Of a stretch of DNA of 40,748 nt, positions 14,312 through 40,748 are shown in pieces. A program made the translations under genes and the position numbers. This stretch comes from a candidate division WWE3 bacterium RIFCSPLOWO2_01_FULL_39_13. GTDB lineage: Bacteria > Patescibacteriota > WWE3 > 2-01-FULL-39-13. The notes below the pieces were generated by a model that made no database searches, was not told the DNA's origin, and saw only the letters and a list, made by a program, of their open reading frames with translations. The stretch's first letter is position 1; the number at the start of each line of letters is the position of its first letter. The stretch is from assembly GCA_001772665.1 (NCBI GenBank), contig MEVH01000014.1, positions 1 through 40,748 of the forward strand, in the 5' to 3' direction.

Positions 14312-14393
14312 TAGGGTATAATCCATCAGATGAAGAAGTTTAGAAGTCAGTAGAATTTCAAGAAAAGGGGTTCAACCACGAAATTATAAAATA

Positions 14394-17565: not shown

Positions 17566-17599
17566 ATAGCGTAATCCTAAGGAAAGGAGGTAAAGGCAA

Positions 17600-17707: not shown

Positions 17708-17733
17708 CAGCGGAGGTAAGTGGTTCACACTGG

Positions 17734-17798
17734 CCTGGGCGGTTATGTGGCTGACAAGCCAATTTACAAAACATAACCGCTCAGGATTTTCTCTTTTT
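17734..17798 (+). terminator. rho-independent terminator of peptide gene A
   Basis: 14-bp stem CCTGGGCGGTTATG (17734-17747) / CATAACCGCTCAGG (17772-17785) with one G-U pair, followed by ATTTTCTCTTTTT. Confidence 0.6.
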
Positions 17799-18080
17799 GC
17801 CCCAGTTTTTAAACGTTTCAAGGCTTTAACTCTTTTGTAGCGATCGTTTCATTTGTGGTAGTCATTCATAGTAATCTTCCTTAAGGCATTTATTTTACCT
17901 TAAGTGGTGCACTTCGTTTTAGAATCAACACAGTTTTTAGGTCTTGACACTGCTCCTGTATAATCGTTCTAACACTGTTCACGGTTCGGGTCAGGGAATG
18001 ATCCTAAATTTTTTAGGATGCTAATCAATTATTTGAAGTGTTACTGAGAAAACTTGATAAGAAATGATAAGGAAATGAAG

Positions 18081-23527: not shown

Positions 23528-23528
23528 T

Positions 23529-24314: not shown

Positions 24315-24391
24315 TAGAAAAACGAGAATTGGCAAATAAAATAGTTGAGATTATGGGGAGATTATAAACAACCAAGATTGTAATTACACAG

Positions 24392-25090: not shown

Positions 25091-25301
25091 AGCGTTTATC
25101 AAATTCCCTCTACAATCTTAACCATCCCCGCCTCAACTAATTCAAGCACATGGTTGGTGCATAAAGCCTGTATAGTATCGCTGTGTTTTGGGGGGGCCAA
25201 ATGGATATTAGTATAAATGGTATAGTTTGAATTCTTCCCGGGAAAAAGACCAGAAAACAAGTTAATGAGCTCTTAAAACTTTTAGGCCAAAAAGAACTTG
25301 A

Positions 25302-28273: not shown

Positions 28274-28327
28274 GTTGATTTTTCTTTCATTTAGCCCTTC
28301 TTTGTATACCTTAATAAGATTCTGTAT

Positions 28328-29875
28328 CTATTTGCCTTTATTGGAGGAACTGACACTATATGGGGGGTTTCCCATTACAACCATTATTGGTTTTTCATTT
28401 TTAATTCTAGAGGCTTCTTTAGCTTCTTCGGCAATACTAGCACCGAAGTCGAATGCCAGAAGTTCAGGCTGGTTAGTTACCTCTTCGAGAGAATTTGTTA
28501 AGTAGATGCCAAGTCTGGCTTTACCCATGCGGGTTTCGTTAAAGTATAAAAAACCTGTTTCCTTAAGTGCCATGCTGAGTTTTAAGTGCGCGATGGTGTA
28601 TGGAGCCATCATTAATTCGAAACCGTATATCCGTGGGAGTAATTCATGGTGCACATATGAAGGCCAACGTCCTTTCTGTCCAGAGTTTTTGATCCGGGTG
28701 TATATTTTGCCTATAACATCGCTGATAAACGTTCCAGTTCCTACTGCGGGATCAAGTATCTGGACTTTGTGAAGGCCGTTACTGGTTCTTGCCGTATTTG
28801 CGAGACCTTTGGGTAAGTTAAATTCGTTTTCGAGAAGATAGTCAACCGAGCGCACTATAAACTGTACAACCGGAAGTGGAGTATAGTAGGCACCCATCCT
28901 TTTTCGCAAGTCGTCGTCATACTCTTTTAAGAAGTCTTCGTAGAAATGGATTACTTGATCCTGTGCACGTTGAGTTCCTTTTTTGATAGTATTTTTGAAG
29001 TATTGACCCATGAGTTTAGCAACATCTGCATGGGTATATACCTCGCATAATTCATCTACTATGTATGAAAGTTGTTTTTCGAAATTTCTGCCTGCTATAT
29101 GGTCGAAAAAATGACCTAAAAATGGATTAGAAGCAGGAATGAGTTCTCTGGCTTCTTGTCGACTAAAAGTGTTCAATGATTTGTCATAGAAACGGGCAAC
29201 AAAGAGTCCATATACCAGGGTTTGGGCGTACATATCAGCAAAGGTATCGGGTGTGAGATCATGTACAAGCAGTCTTTTAATAGTTTCGTATAAATTCATG
29301 AGTTCGAAATTTTTGCCTGATTCTGTTGCAAGGATTTGTCGCATATTATCCCTTATTCTTTGTCCTTTACCTCCCATTATTTTTGCAAGGTGCTTTCCAG
29401 AACGGATTGGTTCTTTATGTGATGCTGTAAAATCGAGCAATGTCTTTGCAATGTATTCGTAGTTCTCTGGTTCAGGAGTTATTGTTCGTTTCTTTATATC
29501 GTGGGTTCCGATTGTAATAGGTTCTCCATAAGGCAAACCGTTTCTATAGAATCTGAATTCAAGATAATCAGTGAGGATCAAGTTCGCATAGCCGTAGTAT
29601 CTAGACATTTGCTCCGATTTCTCGATCTTATCCAAAGACTCACCGATATCCTTTGTTTCGATATAGAGAATTGGAATATCGTTTTTTATTACGACAAAGT
29701 CTGGTTTGTTGCCTTTTCTTGCTTTAGGGTCGTGGTCAAACCTGTGGACATTGATTTCCTTAAATACTTCTCTGAGCATGATCTCAAAGTCAGCTCGATA
29801 GCCATATTCGGATGTTTCATCATGGGAGAATTTGATTGAAATCGATTGGATATAGTTTTCTAAAGTCTCCTTCAT
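28328..29875 (-). pseudogene. type IIG/ISP-like R-M enzyme, N-terminal part (nuclease-like module plus MTase motifs I-IV)
   Basis: PD-(D/E)xK-like PDFVV...LYIETKD, SAM motif ILDPAVGTGTF and catalytic MGNPPYS. It ends at TAG 28328-28330. Confidence 0.8.
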
Positions 29876-30063
29876 TATCTCTTAACCTCGATGAAATTAT
29901 TTAAATCAACCTTTTTTATTCTGTACTGCTTGCCGGCCTTATAAGCTACAAGTTTTCCTGCCTGTATCCAGCGGTAAACAGTTAAGTAGGCTACTTTCAA
30001 CATTGTTGCTACTTCCTCTATGGTGTAATACTCGTCCTCTATGTTATTGTTCATTTTTATCAT
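29875..30063 (-). CDS. excisionase-family helix-turn-helix DNA-binding protein
   Basis: 62-aa ORF. YTIEEVATMLKVAYLTVYRWIQAGKLVAYKAGKQYRI matches the excisionase/MerR-type HTH pattern. Its stop overlaps the R-M gene start by 1 nt. Confidence 0.7.
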   Translation of the reverse strand: MIKMNNNIEDEYYTIEEVATMLKVAYLTVYRWIQAGKLVAYKAGKQYRIKKVDLNNFIEVKR

Positions 30064-31186
30064 TCCTTATCATCCTATCATGGATTGCAACTAACCTTAA
30101 TGGCTCAAATTTCTCTATTTCTGTCCGCAATTTTGAGAATACCTCTGTTGTATCTGGCTGTTTTAACTCTTTCATTTTTCTATTTAAGTTGTACCAGTAA
30201 TAGTTTCCGTATGGTTCTATTATCTGCCGGTATTCCCGCACCCCTATCTCGTCGAGCAGTCCTCTAAAGCAAGTTAGTTCGAGTGCCTGCGTGGGCTTTA
30301 GGTCTGGGTTGGCTCTTAAAATCTCCTTAAAGGTTTTAACATGGCTATCGTGTTTATATGCCAATATCGGCGGATATGCTCCTTCGATTTCGTTAATGTA
30401 GTGAAGCAGTACCTTTTTAGCGATTTTTTGGTTGAAGATGTTTGTAAAAGTAGGTTCTGCTACCACGTCTACCTTTTTAAGAATTTGCCTGATCTTTGAT
30501 CTTCCGTTTAGCCGTATTTCGACTCTTAGTACCTCGAGAGGTTTTTGCTTTTTTAAAAGATCTAACAGGCTTAGCTGAATAGCATTGTCCTTTTCTTCGG
30601 CTCTCTTATCGCTTAGCTCGCCTTTTTGTAGGTCTCTAATCTTATCGTAGAAGACTACCTCAAACGTGTTGGCATGGTATTTAAAGCTGTGTCCTTCGTT
30701 TCTAAAATCTGTTCTGTTTGTATCCAATTTCTTGTTGATATTGAGCTTGGCTAGCTGTTCGATGTAGGTATACGGGGTCGAATAGTCGGTCAAGGCTATA
30801 TTTTTAGAGTAATGGATAGATGATACAAGTGCATCTTGTAGGTTATTTTCAAATACATAAACGCCCATGTCTTTCAGTACGGCTTTCAATTTTTGAATGA
30901 CATTGGAAAAGTCTTCATCTGCTACCTCATCAAAATTGTTGCCGAAAACCAGTTTCGGAGCAGAAAACTCAATTGCCAGTGTTTCACCAAGGCGTCCTGA
31001 GCAATTAAATCGGTTTGTAAGCGTGAGTTTGGGTTTGTATATCCCGCTTTTTAACTCTGTTGTTGTAGGATTTTGAACCAGCGTGAAGTATCCCCTTGAT
31101 GGATTCGTTATATCTTTTTCGAATTTACTTTTATCTACCATTGCAAGCATAGATTTATCCAGCATTAATTTGACTGTATCTACCAT
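30044..31186 (-). CDS. putative rolling-circle replication initiator (phage gpII/CRI-like)
   Basis: 380-aa ORF. IEFSAPKLVFGNNFDEV resembles the (E)GSPAKFLQGHNVFG signature of gene II/CRI-family replication proteins. This is a memory-based assignment. Confidence 0.5.
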   Translation of the reverse strand: MVDTVKLMLDKSMLAMVDKSKFEKDITNPSRGYFTLVQNPTTTELKSGIYKPKLTLTNRFNCSGRLGETLAIEFSAPKLVFGNNFDEVADEDFSNVIQKLKAVLKDMGVYVFENNLQDALVSSIHYSKNIALTDYSTPYTYIEQLAKLNINKKLDTNRTDFRNEGHSFKYHANTFEVVFYDKIRDLQKGELSDKRAEEKDNAIQLSLLDLLKKQKPLEVLRVEIRLNGRSKIRQILKKVDVVAEPTFTNIFNQKIAKKVLLHYINEIEGAYPPILAYKHDSHVKTFKEILRANPDLKPTQALELTCFRGLLDEIGVREYRQIIEPYGNYYWYNLNRKMKELKQPDTTEVFSKLRTEIEKFEPLRLVAIHDRMIRNDKNEQ

Positions 31187-31448
31187 AGCTCATTACTTCT
31201 TCAAACTTTTTAACGACTTCAGCGTGTATTAAGGTTGCAAAGTTCTTATTGATAGGGTGAAAAATGTTTATTTGCCTGTTCCTAACGATTTTTGTTGGAT
31301 AAACAAGCCTATATCCACCCTGTGGTCTAGTCATAATGCCAATTGAGCTCAAATATAGGTAATCATTTAAAACGAAGCTGGCAAAGGCTACTAGCCCGTC
31401 TTTCGGCTTAATTGGCACTATTTGTATTTCGGTTAGCGTTGCATTCAT
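31155..31448 (-). CDS. spoVG: SpoVG-family protein
   Basis: MNATLTEIQIVPIKPKDGLVAFASFVLNDYLYLSSIGIMTRPQGGYRLVYPTK...FHPINKNFATLIHAEVVKKFEEV follows the SpoVG pattern. ATG 31448 is preferred over the TTG at 31475 used by the ORF track. Confidence 0.72.
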   Translation of the reverse strand: MNATLTEIQIVPIKPKDGLVAFASFVLNDYLYLSSIGIMTRPQGGYRLVYPTKIVRNRQINIFHPINKNFATLIHAEVVKKFEEVMSYGRYSQINAG

Positions 31449-31605
31449 GACTTTTTTTCTTCTGCTGTTGGTCAACTTCCATCAACAAACTAAAAAACTT
31501 AATTAGACGGTTTTTATATTCGATATATTCAGCCTCGGACAACTCCCTGTCATATACTTGCTCGAGATAAGTCTTTAAATCCTGCTTATCGGCTACTAAT
31601 TCCAT
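31408..31605 (-). CDS. hypothetical small protein
   Basis: 65-aa ORF at the head of the operon. Its 3' end overlaps the SpoVG-like gene. No motif recognised. Confidence 0.3.
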   Translation of the reverse strand: MELVADKQDLKTYLEQVYDRELSEAEYIEYKNRLIKFFSLLMEVDQQQKKKSHECNANRNTNSAN

Positions 31606-31704
31606 AATTAGGTATAGCTTATAGAAGAGGGTCGAGACAGTCGCTATTTCAGCGCTACTTCGGGGTGAAACTGATTACTTCGGATTGGAAAGGATTAAGG
31701 ACAG

Positions 31705-32739
31705 CTAAAACTTAAGTCTTTTAATACCCTGTTCATCCAGCTGTTCTTGCGTAATGGGGTTATTGAATTGAATTTTAGACTTAGATACCTTAAAGAAAAC
31801 CTGCCTGAATTCACCTTTAAACCCTAGTTGCTCCACAAATTTATTAAGGTCTTTAATAGAATTTTCTTTGGAAGCTTCTTTTATTTCATCGCCAGTTTTT
31901 TCAGTGTTTGGATTTTTATAAAGATAACTAAAGATAGTGTCATTTAAACTGAACAAGGCCAATTTTTTAAATAGAAAACCATTTATTATAATTTCCCTTG
32001 TTTGCTCCGAGTAGGTAATTTCGTAAACAGGCTTGTTTGTAGGGCTTTGGATGCTTTCTGTGGGCTTTGGGTCGTTCTTAATAATTTTCTCGTATTCTTT
32101 TTCATACCAATTAAGCACCTCGAAGTATCTATTGCCAAGTTTAAGGTGTACTAGCTTATCAAAATTATTAGGCCAGATTACTTCTTTAATGGCACTTTCT
32201 TTTTCAAGCTTTCTAAGCATGGTAAATCTTTCATCTGAATACTGCGATTTCTCCCTTTCATTTTTCGCTTTACTGTGGTGTACTTGTGGGATTGCGATGT
32301 TATCTTCGGGTGCGGTTATCTGCCGGCTTGTCTCGATCTCTTGCAATAAGCTCCAGATTTTTTCAAGCGACTTTCTGTTGAGTTTTGGCCTATTGACGTT
32401 AGCAGTGGACGGTTCCTGACCAATGAATTTCTGGTACGCTGGATCTTTCTTGATCTCTTGGTAGTATCCGTCAAACTTGGGTGTAACCTCAATACCATAG
32501 TATTCATTCTCATAATTGGATAGGCCGTAATCATTTATCTCGGGGAGTTTCACTACTTTTAGTATTTTGTCGTCATTTTGAAACTTGTACAAAAGACGCA
32601 GTAATTCATCTGTTGGATAATGACTATCTAAATCCCCCGATGGGTGCAGCAAAATCGGCTGCCCTTTAGGTGTTATGATTTTCTTATCATCAATCTTATT
32701 TAGGAGGAAATATATTTTTCCTTTACCTGATAAGGTCAT
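31705..32739 (-). CDS. hypothetical protein
   Basis: 344-aa ORF. No motif recognised. Confidence 0.5.
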   Translation of the reverse strand: MTLSGKGKIYFLLNKIDDKKIITPKGQPILLHPSGDLDSHYPTDELLRLLYKFQNDDKILKVVKLPEINDYGLSNYENEYYGIEVTPKFDGYYQEIKKDPAYQKFIGQEPSTANVNRPKLNRKSLEKIWSLLQEIETSRQITAPEDNIAIPQVHHSKAKNEREKSQYSDERFTMLRKLEKESAIKEVIWPNNFDKLVHLKLGNRYFEVLNWYEKEYEKIIKNDPKPTESIQSPTNKPVYEITYSEQTREIIINGFLFKKLALFSLNDTIFSYLYKNPNTEKTGDEIKEASKENSIKDLNKFVEQLGFKGEFRQVFFKVSKSKIQFNNPITQEQLDEQGIKRLKF

Positions 32740-32812
32740 AGTTCATTACATCTTTAATTCTAGTTAACATATTTTATCAGTTTTTAGTAAAATACCGGTA
32801 GTTTTTATAGCA

Positions 32813-33517
32813 ATGAAGTTAAAGATACCAGCATATACGATTTTTAAAGAGGAAATTTTTAAGAAGTTAACTTCAAAGAGGAAAAATGCCTTGTTTTGCT
32901 GGTCTTTGTTAGATACTTCAAGCTGGGAAGAGATACCTCCTAAGTATTACCCGGACTATAAAAACGGTCACAAGAAAGTAATTGAGATTATGAAAATGGG
33001 CAAAAGCATAAAAGAATTAGTAGATGAGGATATGAATTACTTTATTAGAAGATTTGTAAACGGCGAATTTCTCAGCAATTTTTTATTAGCTGCTGAGCTT
33101 GAAAATCAGCTGGATAGTTCTTGGAGGCTTGACTTAGATAACCTACAGCAAGCTGTATTCCCTGATGTTCTATTTATAAGTAAGTCCAACAGTAGAAAGG
33201 TAAACATCGAAGTAAAGGGAGTGATTAGCGCCTCGAATTTGAAAAACAGGATAGAAGATGAGGTAATACCGCATTTAAGAGATGAAAATTATAAGGAGTT
33301 TGTATTGTTACTATTGTTTCCTGTTTGTCCTGGGGAAAATCCTAATAGGGTTAATCAGCTGATCGAAGGTTATTATATTTATGAGACGGTGATGAACAAG
33401 GGTGGACAAAAAGTCTTATGTCAGTGTATTAAGCAAGATGCGGACGGTGACAGAAAAGCATTTTCTTTAGAGAAGTTAGTAGGTCGTTTGATTGCCGGGT
33501 ATTTTAGTAAGGCTTGA
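32813..33517 (+). CDS. hypothetical protein with PD-(D/E)xK-like motif
   Basis: 234-aa ORF. FPDVLFISKSNSRKVNIEVKGV fits the D...ExK restriction-endonuclease-fold core. Confidence 0.45.
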   Translation: MKLKIPAYTIFKEEIFKKLTSKRKNALFCWSLLDTSSWEEIPPKYYPDYKNGHKKVIEIMKMGKSIKELVDEDMNYFIRRFVNGEFLSNFLLAAELENQLDSSWRLDLDNLQQAVFPDVLFISKSNSRKVNIEVKGVISASNLKNRIEDEVIPHLRDENYKEFVLLLLFPVCPGENPNRVNQLIEGYYIYETVMNKGGQKVLCQCIKQDADGDRKAFSLEKLVGRLIAGYFSKA

Positions 33518-33529
33518 ATTGCTTAGTTA

Positions 33530-34027
33530 ATGTGGGATAGTATAGGTATGGATCAACTATTAATGTCAAAAGACGTCGATACAACTAAAAACGTGATTTT
33601 GTACATGCTTGGGAAGATGTGGCTTTTTGCAGAGGGGAAAAAGAAACTCATGAAGTTGATGTTCTTGTTGGAGTATTACAATATATCGAGCGGAAAGCTA
33701 TCGACGAAACAATTCCTAGGGAACGATTTCTATATATATAATTACGGTGTTTTTAGCAAAGATATTATGAGATCTATTTCCACTCTTATAGATCAAGGTA
33801 AAATACAGGATGGGTTCCCGTTAATCAATATAGATAGTTCTAAGTCATCACTAGAAAAAAGGGTAAAAGATAAGGTAGATGCCATCCTTGATAAGTTCGG
33901 TAAATTTTCAGGATACCAGCTGGAAGTATCGACCTTAAAAATGCTTGGGATTGAACCTCATGAAAAGAAGAAGTACTTCGGACAAGATATTCCCCAGATT
34001 CTCAATCAGACGAAGGTTGCAGAGTAG
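33530..34027 (+). CDS. Panacea (DUF4065) domain protein, putative antitoxin
   Basis: 165-aa ORF. KKLMKLMFLLEYYN...FYIYNYGVFSKDI follows the DUF4065/SocA-GepA-like pattern (KLxKLLY...WxYGPV). Confidence 0.55.
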   Translation: MWDSIGMDQLLMSKDVDTTKNVILYMLGKMWLFAEGKKKLMKLMFLLEYYNISSGKLSTKQFLGNDFYIYNYGVFSKDIMRSISTLIDQGKIQDGFPLINIDSSKSSLEKRVKDKVDAILDKFGKFSGYQLEVSTLKMLGIEPHEKKKYFGQDIPQILNQTKVAE

Positions 34028-34054
34028 CCTTATGTCTATAAGTACCCCATAATA

Positions 34055-34083
34055 TTTACCTTTTTGTGTTTCTACCCTATAAT
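34055..34083 (+). promoter_or_regulatory. promoter of Cys-rich peptide gene, copy B
   Basis: TTTACC (34055-34060), a 17-nt spacer, then TATAAT (34078-34083). The leader GTAATCCTAAAGAAAGGAGG is conserved with copy A. Confidence 0.45.
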
Positions 34084-34117
34084 ACGTCGTAATCCTAAAG
34101 AAAGGAGGAAAATTGTC

Positions 34118-34219
34118 ATGCGGAAGTTCTGGCGATGCGTCAAGAAGCTTGTGCATCAGGCAATTTGCGGTCGTTGCAAGCGCGACGATCACTGCGGGCA
34201 CTGCCCTTGCTGTCGTTGA
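34118..34219 (+). CDS. 33-aa cysteine-rich peptide (copy B)
   Basis: GGAGG (34104-34108) lies 9 nt before the ATG. The peptide is MRKFWRCVKKLVHQAICGRCKRDDHCGHCPCCR*. See copy A for the synonymous-substitution evidence. Confidence 0.7.
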   Translation: MRKFWRCVKKLVHQAICGRCKRDDHCGHCPCCR

Positions 34220-34242
34220 CAGCGAGCAATGACCCGCACCGG

Positions 34243-34306
34243 CCTGGGCGGTTATGGTGGCTAACAAGCCGATTTACAAAACATAACCGCTCAGGATTTT
34301 TTCTTT
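34243..34306 (+). terminator. rho-independent terminator of peptide gene B
   Basis: Stem CCTGGGCGGTTATG (34243-34256) / CATAACCGCTCAGG (34282-34295), then ATTTTTTCTTT. Confidence 0.6.
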
Positions 34307-34651
34307 AAATTTCACAACCTCAACCCTTACGCTATACGTATTCAAAACACTTCAGGTTTATTTTGCTTACTTATTGTCTTTGAGCTCCAAAAAGATAATC
34401 TGCCATTTTTTGATTTGTAGACTCAGGAGAAAAGTTTGATATGGCGACCTCCTTTACTCTCTTCGAAACTGTGGCTCTTGAGGCTGGATCTAATCTCATA
34501 AAGGTTGTTATGTGCTGGCTTAATTTGACAAAATCTTCGTATGGCATTGGTACGTTGGGATTATCCACAAGGTAACCGTCTTGTTCAAAGTATGGTATGA
34601 GTTCAGCTGATCCTCGAGCATTAAAGCCTATTACTGGTAAACCATGCGCTG
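34293..34651. repeat. 359-bp direct repeat R2 (partner 13953-14311)
   Basis: Covers the spacer plus about the last 93 codons of the intact glycosyltransferase gene. Confidence 0.85.
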
Positions 34652-35696
34652 CGGCTTCAACGGTTACCAGCCCGAATCCTTCTATTGTAGAGGAAATGAA
34701 AAACATGTCAGCGTTTGTATATAATCTGCATAAGTCTCTGTCGGTTGGTCTTTCTATAACAATGACTTTTGTGTTTTTTAGTTCAAGGTTTATAGACCCA
34801 ACACTTTCTTTAACAAATGCTCCGAAAGGACTTTCAGCATCTCCAGCTATGACGAATCCTGCTTTTCTATCTGGATAAGATTCAGCTAAATATTGGTCAA
34901 ATCTTGGAATAAAGTGTAGTAACCTTCCAATTCCTTTTTTTCTTGTAATTCTGCCAGTTGTAAGTATTGTGAATCTATTTTCTAGAGATTCGTCAATTGA
35001 CTTGGCATCGGTTCTTTCAACCTGACAGTTATGACAAAGTTTGGATGCAGGATATACTATTGCTGTTTTTGAAGGCTTGGCTTTTGGAAACACTTTCTCA
35101 AAGGCAGATTTGTTTGCCTGAGAGTTGAAAACTGCATTCAAATTGCAAATACCAGATGCCATCCACAGCCACTTTCTTAACCAATAGAGAGGTTGTGTTG
35201 CAATGTATTTAGCATATTCTTCGGCGGATATCCTGTCTAAGTCAGAGGGTCTTATGTCCAAAGGACTATTCCAGATTACATTGACTAACCTTCTCTGTTC
35301 TGCTGATAACCTTCTAATTAACGCCAAACCTAACATATCAGGGCTATTGACCAGTATAGAATCGAGACCCCCGGTTGTTATGTCTATAAACACACGGTTG
35401 AACTCGTGCATATTTGGCAGTTTATTTAGTGGCCAGCTATTAGCTGCGGTAGCAATAGGCCAAGTTCTAACGTTAGGATCAATAAGTAAAAAATCCTCTT
35501 TAATGAAAGATATCTTTTGTGGAAATACCAGGTCGACCTCAGCTCCCGTTTGTGCTAGAAATTCTGTAAAGGAAAGTACTGTTCTTTGTATTCCTCCATC
35601 TGATCCAGGCGGATATTCCAAGCTAATTAACACACGTTTGTTCGTCAGATCTCTTATAGATGTTTCTGTTTCTTCTTTGTATTCTTGAAACCTCAT
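34371..35696 (-). CDS. glycosyltransferase (GT-B fold, GT4-like)
   Basis: 441-aa ORF with the C-terminal signature EGFGLVTVEAAAHGLPVIG. Confidence 0.85.
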   Translation of the reverse strand: MRFQEYKEETETSIRDLTNKRVLISLEYPPGSDGGIQRTVLSFTEFLAQTGAEVDLVFPQKISFIKEDFLLIDPNVRTWPIATAANSWPLNKLPNMHEFNRVFIDITTGGLDSILVNSPDMLGLALIRRLSAEQRRLVNVIWNSPLDIRPSDLDRISAEEYAKYIATQPLYWLRKWLWMASGICNLNAVFNSQANKSAFEKVFPKAKPSKTAIVYPASKLCHNCQVERTDAKSIDESLENRFTILTTGRITRKKGIGRLLHFIPRFDQYLAESYPDRKAGFVIAGDAESPFGAFVKESVGSINLELKNTKVIVIERPTDRDLCRLYTNADMFFISSTIEGFGLVTVEAAAHGLPVIGFNARGSAELIPYFEQDGYLVDNPNVPMPYEDFVKLSQHITTFMRLDPASRATVSKRVKEVAISNFSPESTNQKMADYLFGAQRQ

Positions 35697-36571
35697 TATT
35701 TTTCAAGCAGGTGCCAAAAGTATTTTAGTTTACCGGCTTTCATAAGTTCGTGTAGCGCAACACAGGACTTTCTGCTTTCGGTTATAACGGGGGGTACCGT
35801 TTGCTCTTCTTGAAGTCTTTTTGCTGAATTTTCACCCATTCTTCTTGCAGATGGAAAAGTTTGCCTTGTAATATCAAGTGATAGTAATGGCACTCCGAAA
35901 CATGTAGCTTGAAGCATTGCTCGAAACTCATCTAATGTTCTAAATTCAGATATGAACCATCCGCGGTGCATATTATCCAGATGTTTCGCTTCATCTGTTG
36001 TTAAAGGCAGGTCATTTAAAACAACGTCAGCAACAAACAATTTGCCACCTTTTTTTAATACGCGGTAAGCTCCTTGAATTGATTTTGCCTGGTCTGTGGA
36101 ATGACAGAGGCTTTCGCAGAATATAACTATGTTAAAAGAGTTGTCAGGGAAGCATGGCTGGTTGTAATCTCCCAGTATGTACCATAAATTGCTAAGACCA
36201 CTGGAAACTCTATATTTATTTGCCGTTGACGCCTGCGAAGGTGTGATATTAGTGCCGATTACGAGGGAATTCGGATATGCAGTTGCTATTTGGTAGGAAA
36301 TGCTACCGACCCCGCATCCGTTTTCTAAAATAGCCGTGCTTGCTTTCGGGTCTATGTCTAGTAAAGATATGATCTTTTTCGTCATTAGTGTTACTGATTC
36401 AAACTGGTCAATTTCATTACCGTCTGGATGATATCCTGAATGTAGTGCGTACGGTGCGGTATAACCTTTCGGGGCTTGAGTCCAATTTCTATATGCTTTA
36501 TCTGCAAGAGTAAAGTATTCCTGAACACCGTCGGTCACTTCACTCGGAGGGAGAGGAGATAAATTAATCAT
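35696..36571 (-). CDS. class I SAM-dependent methyltransferase
   Basis: 291-aa ORF with motif I ILENGCGVGS. Its stop overlaps the GT start by 1 nt (TAATG). Confidence 0.8.
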   Translation of the reverse strand: MINLSPLPPSEVTDGVQEYFTLADKAYRNWTQAPKGYTAPYALHSGYHPDGNEIDQFESVTLMTKKIISLLDIDPKASTAILENGCGVGSISYQIATAYPNSLVIGTNITPSQASTANKYRVSSGLSNLWYILGDYNQPCFPDNSFNIVIFCESLCHSTDQAKSIQGAYRVLKKGGKLFVADVVLNDLPLTTDEAKHLDNMHRGWFISEFRTLDEFRAMLQATCFGVPLLSLDITRQTFPSARRMGENSAKRLQEEQTVPPVITESRKSCVALHELMKAGKLKYFWHLLEK

Positions 36572-36637
36572 AGTAATTCTGCGAAATGATGTATACTTTC
36601 TCTACATAAAAGCTTATAGTATGCCTGCGAGTATTAT

Positions 36638-37672
36638 ATGTTGGAGCTCCTTGGTAAGCAAATCGAAGACAGAATTAAATATCCAGCTGTTAAAGATGTA
36701 TACCTGGAGTGGGAAAAAAGAGGACTATTAGAAGAAAGCTTATCGTTCCTTGGAACTTTACCCGAAAATGATGCAGAAGTTGTGGCACACAGTCTCGTTG
36801 CGCATGTTCATAGGGAGAAAAGCTTATTTATGGATCTGGTAGGTGATAATCTTGGTATTGAAGAAGACGTTCGAAAGCCAGTTGCAGTCTCTTCGGATAT
36901 ACTCTGGGCTTTATCTCTTATGATTGATGATATTGAAGATCAAGATTCCGTTAGAGGAAATCTGCCGTCCTGTTGGGCGAAATATGGGAAAGGTGAAACA
37001 ATAGGTGCAGCATTTTCTACATTAGGGTCACTAACGCGATATTTAGCTGACAGATCCCAAAATAAGCATATTCGTTCTGCCTGCATGCACTATGTTGCCT
37101 TAGGGTTAAGATCAATAACCGAGCATAAATATATGGATTTAGATACTCCTATAGGAGTTATCGTCAGCAACTACGAAAACAGATGTGATTTTCATGCGAC
37201 CCTACAGATAGCTGTTTTTCATGACCTGATTTTAAAAGGGAGATATCCTGACTTAAGAGATAAAACTATTGCAGGTTTTCGCTGTATAAACCGGGCAGGG
37301 CAGTTAATTAATGACTTGAAAGATATTGCCCAAGGAGATATCTATGAAAGGGGTTTTAGCGATATAAGAAATGGTGTTCCCACTGTTCCTTTAATTTACT
37401 TGTATAGGAATCTCAATACTTGGCAAACGAGAGCTTTTTTGAATATGTTTGGAAAAGGTTACGTTAATACTGAAGAAAGGCAGCTATTAAATTCTATGGT
37501 GTCGGACAGTAAAGTTATTGAAAGGACAATGGCGCGCATAGGTGATGAATATGAAAAAGGATTGGAGTTTTTGTCAGTAGTAATAGATGACCCGAGTCTT
37601 TTGTGGTTTGAACGATGGGTTGGGTATAAAAAGTCAAGTTTTTTGGTCCAGCTAAGTTCGATTGATAAATGA
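36638..37672 (+). CDS. polyprenyl-diphosphate-synthase-like protein (isoprenoid synthase fold)
   Basis: 344-aa ORF. The first Asp-rich motif LMIDDIEDQDSVRG is present. The second is replaced by INDLKDIAQGD (NDxxD). Confidence 0.6.
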   Translation: MLELLGKQIEDRIKYPAVKDVYLEWEKRGLLEESLSFLGTLPENDAEVVAHSLVAHVHREKSLFMDLVGDNLGIEEDVRKPVAVSSDILWALSLMIDDIEDQDSVRGNLPSCWAKYGKGETIGAAFSTLGSLTRYLADRSQNKHIRSACMHYVALGLRSITEHKYMDLDTPIGVIVSNYENRCDFHATLQIAVFHDLILKGRYPDLRDKTIAGFRCINRAGQLINDLKDIAQGDIYERGFSDIRNGVPTVPLIYLYRNLNTWQTRAFLNMFGKGYVNTEERQLLNSMVSDSKVIERTMARIGDEYEKGLEFLSVVIDDPSLLWFERWVGYKKSSFLVQLSSIDK

Positions 37673-38856
37673 GACTAGCTTTACTTTTTCATATAAATAT
37701 TAATCATTTGTCCTTGAGCCCAAGAGAACGCAGCACATATATAGAGTCTGATTTGATAGAGATCTTAAAGGCGATGAGTTTTTGCGTAAATGTATCTATT
37801 TGTACAGAAGATTTATTTATACTAAAGTCCTGGAATCGTGACACTTTCGATTCGCTGGTAAATCATGATTACGTTAAATTCTTGTTAGCTCCACATACAC
37901 ATATATTGCCGATACTATTCCCAGAGAATTATTTGGAGAATGTTTCTTTGGGCAAGATGTTATTAAACCGGCTTGTAAATAAAAGTAAAATTATCAATGT
38001 GGGATATCCTGTAGAGGTTGAGCTGCCGGAGTCTCAAATTAATGATTTATACGGAATTTGGAAGGGTATAGTGCTTGGGGAAACACGGTTAAAAATTGCA
38101 GGTTTAGAGCAAAAAAATTATCCGCCTGTATTTGGCGTACAACAAAATGGAAAGATAATTCGATGTTATTTATCAAGGCGAGAGTTTAATTACAGAAAAT
38201 ACTTACATTTGTATCTCTTGGATAAAAGCACCAAGAAAGAAGTATACGAGGCTGTAAAATCAGATTTTGACGCATATGCCAGTGATCTTTATCTCCTTGC
38301 GAGGATTGATATGGAGGTGTTTTCTTTTAATAAAACTATTCATGGAGGTTCCATTAAGAAAATGGCTGAAAAAGTCAGGATTCTGTATGAATATTTTCTT
38401 AGAAATGGAGTTGAATTTATCCATTTAGATGAATTGGTACCCAGCGATAAAAACTCGCAGTGTCTTTCAAAATACCAGATTAGTTGCAATACGCAAGAAG
38501 ATAATAAATGGGGTAGTCAGGCATTGCAAGATCAGGTAAAAATCCGACTCAATACGCAATCTGTATGCTCTACATGCAGGTATCTGCATCTGTTAAGTTT
38601 GATGTGTTCTGATTACTATTGCACAGAGTCAAAAGATATTGTTCTTACGGGGGAGTCTTTGGCTAGACAGAAAGTTATAATTGTCAAAGATAGAAGATAT
38701 AGAGATCCCGAGTCTAGTGTAAAATTACAATTAGTAGGATCTGAAAATTCTCAGGAAAATAACAGAATAATAAAAAGAATAAAGGATTCGGATATTAAAA
38801 AGTATTTTATACATTACTTAAAGGCTGTAAATGAGGTCGAGAAAATATTAAGATGA
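37669..38856 (+). CDS. hypothetical protein, weak GH57-like resemblance
   Basis: 395-aa ORF with a 4-nt overlap to its neighbours on both sides. LLAPHTHILPILFPE resembles the HxILP motif of GH57-type glycoside hydrolases. Low confidence. Confidence 0.4.
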   Translation: MRLALLFHININHLSLSPRERSTYIESDLIEILKAMSFCVNVSICTEDLFILKSWNRDTFDSLVNHDYVKFLLAPHTHILPILFPENYLENVSLGKMLLNRLVNKSKIINVGYPVEVELPESQINDLYGIWKGIVLGETRLKIAGLEQKNYPPVFGVQQNGKIIRCYLSRREFNYRKYLHLYLLDKSTKKEVYEAVKSDFDAYASDLYLLARIDMEVFSFNKTIHGGSIKKMAEKVRILYEYFLRNGVEFIHLDELVPSDKNSQCLSKYQISCNTQEDNKWGSQALQDQVKIRLNTQSVCSTCRYLHLLSLMCSDYYCTESKDIVLTGESLARQKVIIVKDRRYRDPESSVKLQLVGSENSQENNRIIKRIKDSDIKKYFIHYLKAVNEVEKILR

Positions 38857-39365
38857 AAGTAACTGGTGTACATGTTTTACTTATAAATTCAGATAACAAG
38901 TTTTTACTCACTCAAAGGAAGGATGTTCCCTTATGGGTAATTCCAGGTGGGACGGTTGAGAAAAATGAAGATCCCAAAAAAGCCTGTGAAAGGGAGCTTT
39001 TCGAAGAGACACGGGTAAAGGCAGGTAGGCTCATTTTAGCTGCGAAGTACAAAGTGAACAATGGAGTCTATAAAAATTTGTATATTATGCGTGTGCCTGA
39101 ATTTAATATAGATGTTTTTATAGATAAAAAAGAAGTTAAAAGTTATGGATGGTTTACAATCGAAAATCTTCCAAGTCCGATGAGTCTTTATGAGATTTCC
39201 AGGGTTTATGATGCAGTAAACTTTAAAGGCAAGATGATAGAACGAGCTCTAAGCGTAAATATAAAGAAGGAGTTTTTAAACCAGCTGAAAAATCCGTTTA
39301 TATTTCTTTTATTGCTTGCAAGCTTTGTGATAAACAGGCTTACGAACAAAAGCTTTAAATTATAG
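38853..39365 (+). CDS. Nudix hydrolase with C-terminal hydrophobic tail
   Basis: 170-aa ORF with Nudix box GGTVEKNEDPKKACERELFEETRV and a C-terminal FIFLLLLASFVI hydrophobic segment. Confidence 0.85.
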   Translation: MKVTGVHVLLINSDNKFLLTQRKDVPLWVIPGGTVEKNEDPKKACERELFEETRVKAGRLILAAKYKVNNGVYKNLYIMRVPEFNIDVFIDKKEVKSYGWFTIENLPSPMSLYEISRVYDAVNFKGKMIERALSVNIKKEFLNQLKNPFIFLLLLASFVINRLTNKSFKL

Positions 39366-39372
39366 AGAGTTT

Positions 39373-40311
39373 TTATACATGCTGAAGCATCTCAAGTTCG
39401 ACCCTGCTGATCTCAAACTCAACCTCTCTGTTTCGAAATGCGTCCTTTAGGCGGAGCCAGGAAGAACTATTAACCGATTCTGCTATTGCATCGAACTGCT
39501 TTATCCAGTCATAGTGCAGGTTTTCGTCACTTAAAGACAAGTTCTGAAGTGCGGTATTTATTAAGATCCTTTTCTGCTCTGGTTCAGAACTTTCAAATAA
39601 CTCTCTCGCCCTTGAGGCAAGGTTAAGCACGTAATTTGCGTTGATATAATAGGTTTCGTCGGCTTCACGGGTATTAGACATCTTCCGCTCAAGTATTTCC
39701 TGTTTTGCCCGATACTCTTTTCGTTTTTCTTCATAGAAGCTCTTAGTAATACTACCGTCGAGCATGTCTTCGTACATCCTTTCAATTCTTATTTCGTATT
39801 TTTGGTATTCGGTTTGGTATCTTTCGTGTAAATCCTTCTGAAAATGCTTTTTATCTTCGTGAGATTCTTTTAATGATTGTGTTATTTCTTCTGCTACCGC
39901 TTGAGGCACTTTAATCTGACTGAATATGTCCATAAACTGTTGGGTAAGTTTGTCTTCTGTGTACCATCTCGCCTCGTGTTTACCTTGATACTGTGTGCAG
40001 TGGTAATAGACATATTGTCCCTTTTTCTTTTCTGGTGTGATCATACAGCCACATATGGCACATTTTATTAGACCTCTGTACAAATAGGGGAGTCTGGCAT
40101 ATTTGAATTTCTTCTTATTGTGTCCGGCCTTTACTTCCTGAACTGCATCAAAAAACTCCTTTAAAATGACTCTATCGTACTTGTGCGGGTGCAATTGCCC
40201 ATCGTACAGCATTATTCCGTGATAGAACGGGTTTTTGAGAATTTGATCTACTTTGCTTTTGGTGCATTTCAGGTTGAAGACCTCGACAAGCTTATTTCTG
40301 ATCTCTAGCAT
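39373..40311 (-). pseudogene. large serine recombinase, N-terminally truncated paralogue of 25302-26792
   Basis: 312 aa, roughly 85-90% identical by eye to residues ~185-480 of the 25302 copy. The catalytic domain is missing. Homology to the full-length gene stops at 40327, where the IS200/IS605-like end begins. Confidence 0.85.
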
Positions 40312-40327
40312 CGAGTAGCTTTTAGTC

Positions 40328-40748
40328 TGCCGTTAAACCCTCCAGCTTCAGCTGGAGGATGGATAGGCGGTACAGACGACCGGTAGGGTACAATAAAAGG
40401 TGTGAGGTTTCAGAAAAGTACACATGCAGTGTATCGTTTGCAATACCATGTCGTCTGGACTCCTCGATATCGTCGGGAGATATTTGTAGAGGGAGTCAAA
40501 CAGTACCTCGAGAAGGTATTACAGCATATTGATATGTTGGACGATGATATCGAGGTACAACAAGTCAATGTTCAAATAGATCATGTACATCTGGTGATGG
40601 TGATACCGCCACGAATTGCCATAGCCGAAGTAGTGCAGTTCATGAAATCACGAACGGGAAATGTTAAATATACTTTTAAAATGTGCGTAGTTAGAAAATA
40701 ATTTTGTGCAATCATTGATCTTGGAAATATTTCTCCGGATTGGAGGTG
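40328..40748 (+). mobile_element. IS200/IS605-family element remnant (left end plus truncated tnpA), runs to window edge
   Basis: Subterminal hairpin CCTCCAGC-TTCA-GCTGGAGG (40339-40358) upstream of a Y1/HUH transposase ORF. It interrupts the recombinase gene. Confidence 0.65.
40402..40701 (+). pseudogene. tnpA: IS200/IS605 TnpA (HUH/Y1 transposase), 3'-truncated
   Basis: STHAVYRLQYHVVWTPRYRREIF and the HUH motif DHVHLVMVIPP are present. After ...FMKSRTG the sequence diverges and stops. The C-terminal helix with the catalytic Tyr is missing. Confidence 0.75.

What the first reader, a model, noticed from the sequence alone, without database searches (positions are those of the whole stretch)
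39373..39475. Recombinase paralogues diverge exactly at a shared GAGCCAGGA core that matches the tRNA-Asn end: candidate att crossover inside the coding 3' ends
The recombinases at 25302 and 39373 are roughly 85-90% identical by eye up to ...AESVNSSSWL. After codons TCC-TGG-CTC they become unrelated. The 25302 copy ends YIAEDVRKCYVG*, and the 14727 fragment ends YIAEDVRRCFVDL*. The 39373 copy ends RLKDAFRNREVEFEISRVELEMLQHV*. The breakpoint falls on GAGCCAGGA at 25341-25349 and 39454-39462, and on GAGCCAG at 14769-14775. The 12-mer GCGGAGCCAGGA at 39451-39462 is identical to 8135-8146. That second site is the tRNA-Asn acceptor/CCA end fused to the distantly related integrase at 8108, which also reads S-W-L there. 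So all four recombinase 3' ends in this window share one short core at the same codon position, with interchangeable distal arms. That is what attP, attL and pseudo-attB junctions would look like. If so, the 25302 and 14727 copies carry one arm type, possibly the element-native P arm, and the 39373 copy carries a tRNA-end-like B arm.
Basis: partly seen in the sequence, partly recalled or inferred. Interest (0 to 1): 0.65.

Follow-up and report, generated by a model that had tools for sequence, protein, structure and literature searches.

The report
Integrase islands stacked at tRNA-Asn
Four mobile DNA islands lie head-to-tail behind one tRNA-Asn gene. Each was brought in by a large serine integrase whose own gene ends on its attachment site, so neighbouring integrase genes swap their last codons at one six-base core. 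This kind of system is known from Dehalococcoides, but I found no paper on this tRNA-Asn family.

Summary
GAGCCAG occurs four times on the + strand, each time at the W-L codons of a large serine recombinase (LSR) gene. The 25302 and 39373 paralogues are about 87% identical to the right of the core and unrelated to its left.

The core is an att crossover region. In about 80 related loci, similarity to int25302 stops exactly at that Leu in 60 of 79 cases. The ORF then usually runs into the antisense of tRNA-Asn: 34 of 38 distinct tRNA arms.

The arm fused to the 39373 copy is not a B arm. It is a P-type arm, because its T-loop-like motif sits 5 bp further from the core, which marks attP against attB half-sites. 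Its RLKDAFRNRE... tail is the conserved native C-terminus. In nine single-element loci this tail lies, not fused to an integrase body, at the far end of the element.

Every non-tRNA arm in the window belongs to the element on its left, not to the integrase it is fused to. The window therefore holds a tandem array: tRNA-Asn, E1, E2, E3, E4. E2 and E3 carry restriction-modification systems; E3 also carries other defence-type genes.

The closest known system is the Dehalococcoides ssrA islands (DsiB). No excision was observed.

The parts
8069..8143 (+). tRNA-Asn(GTT) gene with encoded CCA. Its 3' part is the B arm of the attL site. The T-loop TTCGAA at 8121-8126 lies 11 nt from GAGCCA.
   Evidence: ARAGORN. 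Rfam RF00005, 68.5 bits. Sequence read.
8138..8143 (.). Core GAGCCA, junction 1 (attL: tRNA B arm | int8108 P' arm). The predicted crossover dinucleotide is GA at 8138-8139.
   Evidence: core TGGCTC in nearly all family junctions. Dyad-axis analysis. The exact dinucleotide is an inference.
8108..9739 (-). int8108, an intact large serine recombinase of 543 aa and the integrase of island E1. Its last nine sense codons and stop codon (8108-8137, RGLDSNQQP*) are tRNA-Asn antisense.
   Evidence: Pfam Resolvase + Recombinase + Zn_ribbon_recom. Translation. 24% identical to int25302.
8138..14770 (.). Island E1 (about 6.6 kb): int8108 plus small ORFs of unknown function. Its distal part holds a 367-bp relic of an E3-like glycosyltransferase gene (13945-14311), so E1 may be a composite.
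14727..14768 (-). Distal arm of E1: a P-type arm that closes the reading frame of the int14727 relic with YIAEDVRRCFVDL*. TTCTAA lies 16 nt from GAGCCA.
   Evidence: The tail motif [IV]x[ED]DVR[TKR] recurs among native-type tails of int8108 homologues.
14769..14774 (.). Core GAGCCA, junction 2 (E1 P arm | int14727 P' arm).
14775..15074 (-). Relic of the E2 integrase. Only residues 384-484 of the int25302 family remain (46% identity), so E2 cannot move on its own.
14769..25342 (.). Island E2 (about 10.6 kb). Cargo is a Type I restriction-modification system, hsdR/M/S at 18054-23527, plus an HNH-like ORF at 24392-25090.
   Evidence: Pfam.
25302..25340 (-). Distal arm of E2: a P-type arm that closes the int25302 frame with YIAEDVRKCYVG*. 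TCCTAA lies 16 nt from GAGCCA.
25341..25346 (.). Core GAGCCA, junction 3 (E2 P arm | int25302 P' arm).
25341..26792 (-). int25302 body (residues 1-484), an intact large serine recombinase and the integrase of island E3.
   Evidence: Pfam. More than 1000 homologues. The fold of its paralogue matches LSR-DNA complexes 4KIS, SPbeta and phiC31.
25341..39455 (.). Island E3 (about 14.1 kb). Cargo: Type ISP restriction-modification enzyme in two ORFs (26789-29875), SocA/Panacea-domain protein, GT4 'conflict' glycosyltransferase, methyltransferase, polyprenyl synthase, NUDIX.
   Evidence: Pfam.
39373..39453 (-). Distal arm of E3, which is the native P arm and native C-terminal tail of int25302 (RLKDAFRNREVEFEISRVELEMLQHV*). 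It is now fused to the int39373 body. TTCGAA at 39432-39437 lies 16 nt from GAGCCA.
   Evidence: 85-87% identical to the two tail sites not fused to an integrase body in L007. Top PWM score of 43.3.
39454..39459 (.). Core GAGCCA, junction 4 (E3 P arm | int39373 P' arm).
39454..40326 (-). int39373, a paralogue of int25302 (86% aa identity) and the integrase of island E4. It has lost residues 1-193, including the catalytic domain, so it is inactive.
40327..40701 (+). IS200/IS605-type insertion that truncates int39373. It has a hairpin-bearing end and a Y1 transposase ORF at 40402-40701.
   Evidence: Pfam Y1_Tnp. Alignment break at 40326.

Best explanation
The window holds the chromosome of a Patescibacteria-like groundwater bacterium (pyrG, dnaG, rpoD, a PIN toxin pair, tRNA-Asn). 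Behind the tRNA lies a tandem array of four integrative islands, E1 to E4.

**How each island is built.** Each island was integrated by a large serine recombinase of a family that targets the 3' end of tRNA-Asn. The attP site of these elements lies on the last codons of the integrase gene itself. The P' arm is the coding sequence up to ..W-L. The six-base core TGGCTC (GAGCCA on the tRNA strand) is the W-L codon pair. The P arm encodes the native C-terminal tail, mostly 27-48 codons counted from the W codon.

**What integration does.** Integration separates the integrase body from its tail. The body now reads into the tRNA antisense (..WL[PR]xxDSN..*). The tail goes to the far, tRNA-distal end of the island.

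**Why the tails look swapped.** In an array, each integrase body is followed by the tail of the island next to it on the tRNA side. So int14727 carries E1's tail, int25302 carries E2's tail, and int39373 carries E3's tail. E3's tail is the native tail of int25302.

**What is shown.**
- The fixed breakpoint at the core.
- The tRNA-Asn target.
- The P-type and B-type arm architecture with a 5-bp shift.
- Reciprocal junctions in other genomes.
- An independent tandem array.

**What is inferred.**
- The crossover dinucleotide is GA (tRNA positions 71-72). If so, the integrase's own W-L codons re-supply G73-CCA to the tRNA.
- Islands stack because attL keeps the whole conserved B arm (the tRNA), while the B' side seems unconstrained. 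A further element could then integrate next to the tRNA again, which would make the tRNA-proximal island the newest.
- The full-length integrase with its native tail is made only from the excised circle, or when a neighbouring island supplies a tail.
For: 1. **Fixed breakpoint.** tblastn of int25302 against 87 fetched loci ends at residue 484 (the Leu of S-W-L) in 60 of 79 alignments that reach the C-terminus, and at 483-484 in 65.
2. **Target.** Of 38 distinct junctions with a tRNA called by ARAGORN, 34 are tRNA-Asn(GTT), 3 tRNA-Gln and 1 tRNA-His. The core is TGGCTC. Among the 120 best homologues of int25302, 59 end in ..DSN.. tRNA-antisense tails and 38 stop within 4 aa after WL. int8108 homologues show the same pattern.
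3. **Arm types.** After the core, the B-arm consensus is CccgG..aGGAtTCGAACC and the P-arm consensus is ccC.Ta.tgGAcG..TTtcGaAAc. The inner 12 nt are in register. The distal B motif fits the P arms only at offset +5: mean score 0.04 bits, against -10 or lower at every other offset from -3 to +9. Rutherford et al. 2013 placed the zinc-ribbon-domain motif at bp 16-24 in attP and 11-19 in attB half-sites (PMC3783163). All three non-tRNA arms of the window have the hexamer at 16 nt.
4. **Reciprocal junctions.** Core plus P-type tail, in the integrase's orientation and not fused to an integrase body, lies 5.8-10.4 kb from a tRNA-Asn-integrated integrase in L007, L026, L051, L067, L076, L079, L085, L086 and L087. 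L007 has the same host synteny as the window (rpoD next to tRNA-Asn). Its integrase is 74% identical to int25302, and its own tail (WLGVLDAFRNREVEIE..) is of the window's 39373 type.
5. **Independent tandem array.** In L017 an integrase with a P-type tail is followed 7.8 kb later by a second integrase that reads into tRNA-Asn. L052 has three P-type core sites in direct orientation.
6. **Tails are kept as coding.** The median open length is 36 codons in the integrase frame, against 8 and 10 in the other two frames.
7. **The proteins are LSRs.** Pfam finds Resolvase + Recombinase + Zn_ribbon_recom. The model's best fold matches are LSR-DNA complexes (4KIS, E 2e-7; SPbeta; phiC31).
8. **Crossover position.** Dyad symmetry of 11 reconstructed attP sites peaks at the axis between T5 and C6 of TGGCTC: 94 of 264 matches, 0.356. 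This coincides with the paralogue homology break directly left of G25341/G39454.
Against: - No excision product, circle junction or empty site was seen. Contigs of four public runs laid on 24000-40748 show no joints at 5-10x depth. All other contigs with the identical RpoD carry the same array. No fetched contig is circular.
- The internal junctions are P/P' hybrids. Canonical serine integrases recombine only attP x attB, or attL x attR with a directionality factor. How such arrays form and whether inner islands can leave is unexplained. The proposal that attL can serve again as a target is an inference, drawn from the lack of any B' consensus and the lack of a clear dyad signal in the B/B' reconstructions.
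- The YIAEDVR arms match the P consensus only weakly. They were not found by the PWM at a threshold of 12 bits.
- E1 contains a relic of an E3-like gene, so E1's tail may not be native to int8108.
- The dyad-axis signal is modest: 0.356 against a runner-up of 0.333, with background about 0.25.
- Two of the four integrases are dead, so much of the array is probably fixed.
Confidence: 0.8

Rival explanations
1. The YIAEDVR arms are the native P arms of the integrases they are fused to (25302 and 14727). The arm on the 39373 copy is a B-type or pseudo-attB arm derived from a tRNA end, so 39373 would be an integrated attL-like copy.
For: The 12-mer GCGGAGCCAGGA is shared with the tRNA end. There is a TTCGAA in the arm.
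Against: TTCGAA sits 16 nt from the core, not 11 nt. That is the attP register. The arm encodes a 26-aa tail conserved in both integrase families. In nine loci this tail lies at the far end of single elements whose integrase is joined to a real tRNA-Asn. No tRNA or tRNA fragment is detected at 39373-39453. Between the 14727 and 25302 ORFs the YIAEDVR tails are 9/11 identical while the adjacent bodies are 46% identical, so the tails do not co-evolve with the bodies they are fused to.
Confidence: 0.05
2. Ordinary 3' decay, or a chance boundary of a segmental duplication or gene conversion between the two paralogues, with no site-specific recombination involved.
For: The two copies do recombine or cross-assemble. 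Contigs L005 and L006 switch from the 25302 copy to the 39373 copy about 400 bp inside the gene. Paralogue-swapped variants appear in Logan contigs.
Against: The break is at the same codon in four genes of the window, including one only 24% identical to the others. It is at residue 484 in 60 of 79 alignments from unrelated contigs. The sequence beyond the break falls into defined classes (tRNA antisense or P-type tail), not random decay.
Confidence: 0.02
3. Same att system but a different history. The array was not built by serial integration next to the tRNA. It arrived wholly or partly as a pre-formed composite (accretion and en-bloc transfer), or was reshaped by deletions and homologous recombination between integrase paralogues. 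Then the order of islands says nothing about their age, and some 'islands' are fragments.
For: E1 carries a 367-bp relic of an E3-type glycosyltransferase gene next to its tail. E2 has only a 115-aa integrase relic. E1's and E2's tails are near-identical although their integrases belong to different families. L052 and L007 have integrase-less segments between P-type cores. McMurdie et al. describe the same for 15 integrase-less ssrA islands and invoke accretion.
Against: Nothing excludes it. It is compatible with the main explanation for what the junctions are and differs only on how the array formed. Canonical LSR rules disfavour both attP x attL and the excision of inner islands.
Confidence: 0.3
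4. A programmed switching system (shufflon or invertase-like) that exchanges alternative C-terminal cassettes of one recombinase.
For: Alternative C-termini are joined at one short conserved sequence.
Against: All four cores are in direct orientation, not inverted. The 'cassettes' are 6-14 kb apart, with unrelated cargo between them. Two of the four genes are dead. The same tails lie at island ends in single-element loci.
Confidence: 0.01

Closest known systems
Dehalococcoides ssrA-specific genomic islands with the large serine recombinase DsiB (McMurdie et al. 2011, PMC3146451)
   Same: An LSR gene sits at the tDNA-proximal edge of the island on the reverse strand. Its 3' end always overlaps attL, and its stop codon lies in the target RNA gene or in the adjacent island. 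The C-termini therefore diverge. Islands are stacked in tandem, some without an integrase. Cargo is adaptive. The authors already suggested that the integrase might be complete only on the circle or downstream of a neighbouring island.
   Different: - The target here is the CCA end of tRNA-Asn (some relatives use tRNA-Gln or tRNA-His), not tmRNA.
- The repeat between junctions is 6-8 bp, not 20 bp.
- By Pfam, no second small serine recombinase (DsiA) or six-gene integration module lies next to the integrases.
- Hosts are mainly Patescibacteria, Chloroflexota and Omnitrophota.
- Homology to DsiB itself was not tested, because no DsiB sequence was in hand.
Canonical phage large serine integrases (Listeria A118/LI, phiC31, Bxb1, SPbeta) and their attP/attB architecture (Rutherford et al. 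2013, PMC3783163)
   Same: Same domain set and fold. Short att sites. Inner parts of the half-sites are in register, and the distal motif is shifted 5 bp outward in attP relative to attB.
   Different: attP lies inside the integrase's own coding sequence. attB's strong half is a tRNA 3' end. The integrase C-terminus changes with the integration state. Elements form tandem arrays, which the strict attP x attB rule would not predict. No relative was found in IMG/VR viral contigs.
SCCmec and other SCC elements with CcrAB/CcrC at the 3' end of rlmH (orfX)
   Same: LSR-driven islands inserted at the 3' end of a conserved housekeeping gene. They often form tandem composite islands separated by short direct repeats of the core. 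(From my own knowledge, and from the comparison drawn in PMC3146451.)
   Different: SCC uses a protein-coding target and usually two recombinases. The ccr genes are internal to the element and do not overlap the att site.
Tyrosine-integrase tDNA islands (Islander/TIGER type), and integrases whose gene contains attP (Myxococcus phage Mx8 intP/intX, Sulfolobus SSV1)
   Same: Integration into the 3' part of a tRNA gene, with the element restoring the tRNA end. Tandem arrays at tDNAs. In Mx8 and SSV1 integration alters or splits the integrase gene. (Mx8 and SSV1 are from memory and were not checked here. Islander: PMC4383910.)
   Different: A different enzyme superfamily and chemistry. Tyrosine systems carry long identity segments (tens of bp of the tRNA), whereas here only about 6 bp are shared.

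Membership tests
Large serine recombinase (serine integrase) | N-terminal resolvase-type catalytic domain with the serine nucleophile | tested here: met
   PF00239 matches int8108 (2e-24) and int25302 (5e-11). S10 lies in an invariant R-V-S-T motif in the 28-sequence alignment. The domain is absent from the 14727 relic and from the IS-truncated 39373 copy.
Large serine recombinase (serine integrase) | C-terminal recombinase domain plus zinc-ribbon domain with an inserted coiled coil | tested here: met
   PF07508 and PF13408 match. The AF2 model of the 39373 ORF (mean pLDDT 87.8) has two long helices at 137-185 and 190-233. The best fold matches are 4KIS, SPbeta and phiC31 integrase-DNA complexes.
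Large serine recombinase (serine integrase) | attP and attB half-sites share inner motifs in register, with the distal (zinc-ribbon) motif 5 bp further out in attP | tested here: met
   38 B arms were compared with 16 P arms. The distal motif fits only at offset +5. The rule itself is from PMC3783163.
Large serine recombinase (serine integrase) | Strand exchange at a 2-bp central dinucleotide, and directionality controlled by a recombination directionality factor | not testable with these tools
   There is only an indirect placement of the dyad axis at GA. No candidate directionality factor was identified.
Dehalococcoides-type tDNA islands with an att-overlapping LSR (ssrA-GI / DsiB) | The integrase 3' end overlaps attL, and the stop codon lies in the target RNA gene or in the adjacent island | tested here: met
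   Described for DsiB.
Dehalococcoides-type tDNA islands with an att-overlapping LSR (ssrA-GI / DsiB) | Tandem islands in direct orientation downstream of the target gene, some without an integrase | tested here: met
   Four cores in direct orientation in the window. L017, L052 and L007 show the same.
Dehalococcoides-type tDNA islands with an att-overlapping LSR (ssrA-GI / DsiB) | The target is the tmRNA gene ssrA, with a 20-bp direct repeat | tested here: not met
   The target is tRNA-Asn. The shared core is 6-8 bp.
Dehalococcoides-type tDNA islands with an att-overlapping LSR (ssrA-GI / DsiB) | A conserved six-gene integration module including a second small serine recombinase (DsiA) | tested here: not met
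   The ORFs next to int8108 and int25302 have no resolvase-domain match in Pfam. This test is at Pfam level only.
Dehalococcoides-type tDNA islands with an att-overlapping LSR (ssrA-GI / DsiB) | Sequence homology of the integrase to DsiB | not tested
Some close homologues are labelled Dehalococcoidia.

The most novel reading that the evidence does not exclude
The integrase's C-terminus reports the integration state and is used as a switch. The conserved native tail, mostly 27-48 codons counted from the W codon, is joined to the enzyme only on the excised circle, or when a neighbouring island donates a tail. Integration into the tRNA replaces it with 2-13 arbitrary residues.

If the tail is needed for integration, or blocks excision, the element would carry a built-in control of directionality without a separate factor. 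An integrase inside an array would then be re-armed by its neighbour's tail.

A second possibility is that attB recognition rests almost wholly on the tRNA half-site. That would explain why islands can stack at one tRNA despite the attP x attB rule.
Probability: 0.25. Interest if true: 0.7.

Novelty: new member of a known kind. Interest (0 to 1): 0.45.

Why it matters
1. **Annotation.** It explains a recurrent oddity: hundreds of recombinase ORFs in Patescibacteria, Chloroflexota and Omnitrophota with unrelated C-termini ending in ..DSN... It also gives a simple rule for finding island boundaries in these poorly studied genomes: the core TGGCTC with either tRNA-Asn antisense or a P-type tail.
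2. **Defence islands.** In this lineage, restriction-modification and other defence cargo is delivered and stacked at one tRNA gene by serine integrases, not tyrosine integrases.
3. **Support for the structural model.** The family is a natural data set for the model of serine-integrase site recognition. One recognisable motif, the tRNA T-loop, sits in the attB register in the host and 5 bp further out in dozens of attP arms.
4. **Practical use.** Integrases with a highly conserved tRNA-end target and a readable attP inside their own gene are easy to mine for att pairs.
5. **An open question made testable.** McMurdie et al. (2011) asked whether such an integrase is complete only on the circle. 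The native tail can now be identified, and this work shows it is conserved and kept open, so the question can be tested directly.

Tried and rejected
- **Reads and contigs for excision.** The four best public runs (Logan contigs only, 5-10x) were laid on 24000-40748. They gave no joints, only paralogue cross-assembly. This is uninformative, not negative evidence.
- **L005/L006 as an 'empty site' for E3.** They join the E2 end to the IS-truncated copy. However, the switch lies about 400 bp inside the integrase gene, within a stretch of high identity between the two copies, not at the core. This is either a homologous deletion or an assembly chimera, and it was rejected as evidence for site-specific excision.
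- **Strain polymorphism at the tRNA.** Six other contigs with the identical RpoD all carry the same array.
- **Single-protein scan of species genomes.** It gave only 4 loci. The alignment-based metagenome scan was the productive one.
- **Viral origin.** There are no relatives in IMG/VR.
- **Circular contigs.** None were found among the fetched loci.
- **Structure of the native tail.** The AF2 tail residues 287-312 have block-mean pLDDT of about 49-62, so nothing can be said about them.
- **Further att-like sites inside E1-E3.** There are none beyond the four.
- **Literature.** Searches found no paper describing a tRNA-Asn-specific serine integrase family. That is absence from the searched library only.
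- **Symmetry of the attB reconstructions.** No clear dyad signal was found.
Full report
**1. The observation.**

GAGCCAG occurs on the + strand only at 8138, 14769, 25341 and 39454. Each copy is the antisense of the Trp-Leu codons, plus one base of the codon before them, in a minus-strand recombinase ORF.

The 25302 and 39373 copies align at about 87% from the core rightwards to 26213/40326, where an IS200/605-type element cuts the second copy. Directly left of the first G of the core they become unrelated.

The 12-mer GCGGAGCCAGGA is found only at the tRNA-Asn end and at 39451. About 0.07 matches are expected by chance. tRNA-Asn(GTT) lies at 8069-8143 with an encoded CCA.

**2. Context.**

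Positions 1-8143 are ordinary chromosome: CTP synthase, DnaG, RpoD and a PIN toxin pair. The nearest named RpoD homologues, at 55-60% identity, are from Parcubacteria, WWE3 and Nomurabacteria. Identical contigs come from groundwater metagenomes. The host is therefore most likely a Patescibacteria (CPR) bacterium.

The ORFs at 8108 and 25302 are complete large serine recombinases with Resolvase + Recombinase + Zn_ribbon_recom domains. The 39373 ORF lacks the first 193 residues. The 14727 ORF is a relic covering residues 384-495 of the int25302 family. int8108 is only 24% identical to int25302.

Between the recombinases lie a Type I restriction-modification system (18054-23527) and a Type ISP enzyme (26789-29875). 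There are also a SocA/Panacea protein, a 'conflict-system' glycosyltransferase and other genes.

**3. The break is a property of the family.**

int25302 has more than 1000 homologues (E <= 1e-10), and int8108 has more than 2000. Their alignments to the query stop at about 97-98% coverage. Their C-termini fall into classes.
- Most read ..W-L-[P/R]-x-x-D-S-N.., or stop within four residues of W-L.
- A minority carry longer tails: either ..L-x-D-x-F-R-N-R-E-[IV]-E-[FL].. or ..[ED]-D-V-R-T-x-[FYW]...

D-S-N is GAT TCG AAC, the antisense of the tRNA T-loop.

A metagenome scan with a 28-sequence alignment returned 80 loci. tblastn of int25302 ends exactly at residue 484, the Leu, in 60 of the 79 alignments that reach the C-terminus. 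The DNA after the core TGGCTC is tRNA-Asn(GTT) antisense in 34 of 38 distinct tRNA junctions, tRNA-Gln in 3 and tRNA-His in 1.

So the core is where element DNA meets target DNA, and the family targets the CCA end of tRNA-Asn.

**4. Which arm is which.**

The sequences after the core were compared. The tRNA (B) arms have the consensus CccgG..aGGAtTCGAACC. The non-tRNA arms have ccC.Ta.tgGAcG..TTtcGaAAc. The first 12 nt are in register. The distal T-loop motif reappears in the non-tRNA arms only at an offset of +5. The mean PWM score there is 0.04 bits, against -10 or lower at every other offset tested.

Rutherford et al. showed for the Listeria integrase that attB carries the zinc-ribbon-domain motif 5 bp closer to the centre than attP: bp 11-19 against 16-24 (PMC3783163). 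The non-tRNA arms are therefore P-type arms.

In the window the hexamer lies 11 nt from GAGCCA in the tRNA. It lies 16 nt from GAGCCA in all three other arms: TTCGAA at 39432, TCCTAA at 25319 and TTCTAA at 14747.

Its likeness to the tRNA end is the in-register inner part that P and B arms share.

**5. Whose arm is it.**

L007 has the same host synteny as the window (rpoD, then tRNA-Asn). It carries one integrase that is 74% identical to int25302 and reads into the tRNA. At 6.2 kb from that junction, in the same orientation and not preceded by any integrase body, lies TGGCTC followed by an open frame WLGVLDAFRNREVEIEVSKIGLELYIT*. A second such site lies further out. Both are 85-87% identical in DNA to window 39413-39460.

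A PWM built from P arms finds the same arrangement in L026, L051, L067, L076, L079, L085, L086 and L087. Each has a P-type tail not fused to an integrase body, 5.8-10.4 kb from the tRNA-Asn junction and in the integrase's orientation.

Hence the tail is the tRNA-distal end of the element. On circularisation it would close the element's own integrase frame.

The tails stay open for a median of 36 codons in the integrase frame, against 8 and 10 codons in the other two frames. So they are maintained as coding sequence well beyond the 8-9 codons that an att half-site needs.

**6. The window as an array.**

With int at the tRNA-proximal end and the tail at the distal end of each element, the window reads as follows:
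- tRNA-Asn | E1 (8138-14770: int8108 ... tail YIAEDVRRCFVDL)
- | E2 (14769-25342: integrase relic, Type I R-M ... tail YIAEDVRKCYVG)
- | E3 (25341-39455: int25302, Type ISP R-M and other cargo ... tail RLKDAFRNRE..)
- | E4 (39454 onwards: IS-disrupted integrase).

Each integrase body is thus fused to its neighbour's tail. That is why paralogous bodies carry unrelated ends, and why the 14727 and 25302 ORFs are 46% identical in the body but 9/11 identical in the tail.

L017 is an independent example. An integrase with a P-type tail is followed by a second integrase that reads into tRNA-Asn. L052 has three P-type cores in a row.

No further att-like site lies inside E1-E3.

**7. Crossover position (inferred).**

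Eleven attP sites were rebuilt from each integrase end and its own tail. Their dyad symmetry peaks at the axis between T5 and C6 of TGGCTC (94 of 264 matches), which is GA on the tRNA strand. In L026 the symmetry is obvious: GTCAA...TTGAC at equal distances from that axis.

This axis puts the T-loop motif at about bp 14-19 in attB and 18-25 in attP, within the published windows. It also coincides with the homology break between the paralogues.

If this is right, the discriminator base and CCA of the tRNA are re-supplied by the integrase's own W-L codons. That would explain why these two codons are nearly invariant (W483 and L484). The signal is modest, with a runner-up of 0.333, so the dinucleotide remains a prediction.

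**8. How arrays could form (inferred).**

After integration, attL still holds the complete tRNA arm. The B' arms recovered from the unfused tail sites show no consensus, and the attB reconstructions show no clear dyad signal. The enzyme may therefore depend mainly on the tRNA half-site. If so, an occupied tRNA would still be a target, and new islands would insert next to the tRNA.

This conflicts with the strict attP x attB rule for model serine integrases, and it is not shown here. Accretion, en-bloc transfer and deletions are equally possible:
- E1 holds a 367-bp relic of an E3-type glycosyltransferase gene.
- E2 has lost its integrase.
- Integrase-less segments occur in L007 and L052.

**9. 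What was not found.**

There is no evidence of current mobility:
- no joints in the contigs of four runs;
- no variant arrays among contigs with the identical RpoD;
- no circular contigs.

L005 and L006 join E2 to the IS-truncated copy, but they switch copies 400 bp inside the gene, so they are a homologous deletion or a chimera. The AF2 model is confident for the recombinase, zinc-ribbon and coiled-coil parts. It is not confident for the tail.

**10. Comparison with what is known.**

The closest described system is the ssrA-specific islands of Dehalococcoides. [quoted passage not shown] The authors proposed that dsiB may be fully functional only on the circle or downstream of a neighbouring island (PMC3146451).

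The present family differs in three ways. Its target is tRNA-Asn. Its common core is short. By Pfam, it lacks a second small recombinase and a conserved integration module.

SCC elements are a further analogue of LSR islands stacked at the 3' end of a housekeeping gene. Mx8 and SSV1 are tyrosine-integrase analogues of an attP inside the integrase gene. These last comparisons are from memory.

I found no paper on a tRNA-Asn-specific serine integrase family.

**11. Verdict.**

The finding is real and mostly well interpreted. The core is an att crossover region inside the coding 3' ends. The assignment of arms has to be corrected. All three non-tRNA arms are P-type, each belongs to the neighbouring island, and the 39373 tail is the native tail of int25302.

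It is a new member of a known kind of system, with a clear natural illustration of the attP/attB register rule and a testable idea about a state-dependent integrase C-terminus.

Noticed in passing
L007 10035-10460 (also L073, L079 and L045 at their integrase junctions): In the related genome the tRNA-Asn gene is split in the anticodon loop by a group I intron of about 330 nt (Rfam RF00028, 91.5 bits, E 4e-24). ARAGORN therefore misses the tRNA. Three other loci break off at the same point of the tRNA (..GTTAC|..). The window's own tRNA-Asn has no intron.
   Followed up: partly
window 13945-14311 and 34285-34651: A 367-bp repeat at about 90% identity. The second copy is the 3' part of the GT4 glycosyltransferase gene of island E3 (34371-35696, minus strand). 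The first is a gene relic near the distal end of E1. It suggests E1 is a composite that includes the remains of an E3-like island. Contig depth is about doubled over the E3 copy in run X1.
   Followed up: partly
window 40327-40748: An IS200/IS605-type element (hairpin CCCTCCAGCTTCAGCTGGAGG, then a Y1 transposase ORF at 40402-40701) is inserted in the E4 integrase at the codon for residue 194. The same insertion is present in contigs L005 and L006.
   Followed up: partly
L005 and L006 (whole contigs): Two independent metagenome assemblies give a contig that is 100% identical to window 24238-25740, then switches to 100% identity with the 39373 copy and its IS. This is either a 14-kb deletion of E3 by homologous recombination between the integrase paralogues or a recurrent assembly chimera.
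   Followed up: partly
window 26789-29875: The Type ISP restriction-modification enzyme is split into two ORFs. ORF 28328-29875 carries the N-terminal and methylase part, and ORF 26789-28273 carries the Type_ISP_C specificity part. A 54-bp gap separates them. It may be a frameshifted or nonsense pseudogene, or a genuine two-gene form.
   Followed up: no
P0011, P0071, P0132; L014 2323 onwards; L069 1118 onwards: A third class of tails follows the W-L core (..AFQN.SY[IV]GE[LM]RQRWEEIK[RK]L..). It fits neither the tRNA-antisense class nor the two P-type flavours. It could be another attP type or a protein-coding target.
   Followed up: no
window 12001-15000: G+C rises to 0.45 against 0.33-0.41 elsewhere in the window. 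This stretch covers the distal part of E1, including the ORF at 13002-13832, which has no Pfam match.
   Followed up: no
L052 1900, 11456, 12282; L007 1472, 3012, 3816: Several P-type core sites in direct orientation bound short segments of 0.8-2.3 kb that have no integrase. This resembles the integrase-less ssrA islands of Dehalococcoides.
   Followed up: partly
L092 3162-3401: The contig is identical to window 5763-8924, then diverges inside the int8108 body for its last 240 bp. It could be a variant integrase or an assembly switch.
   Followed up: no
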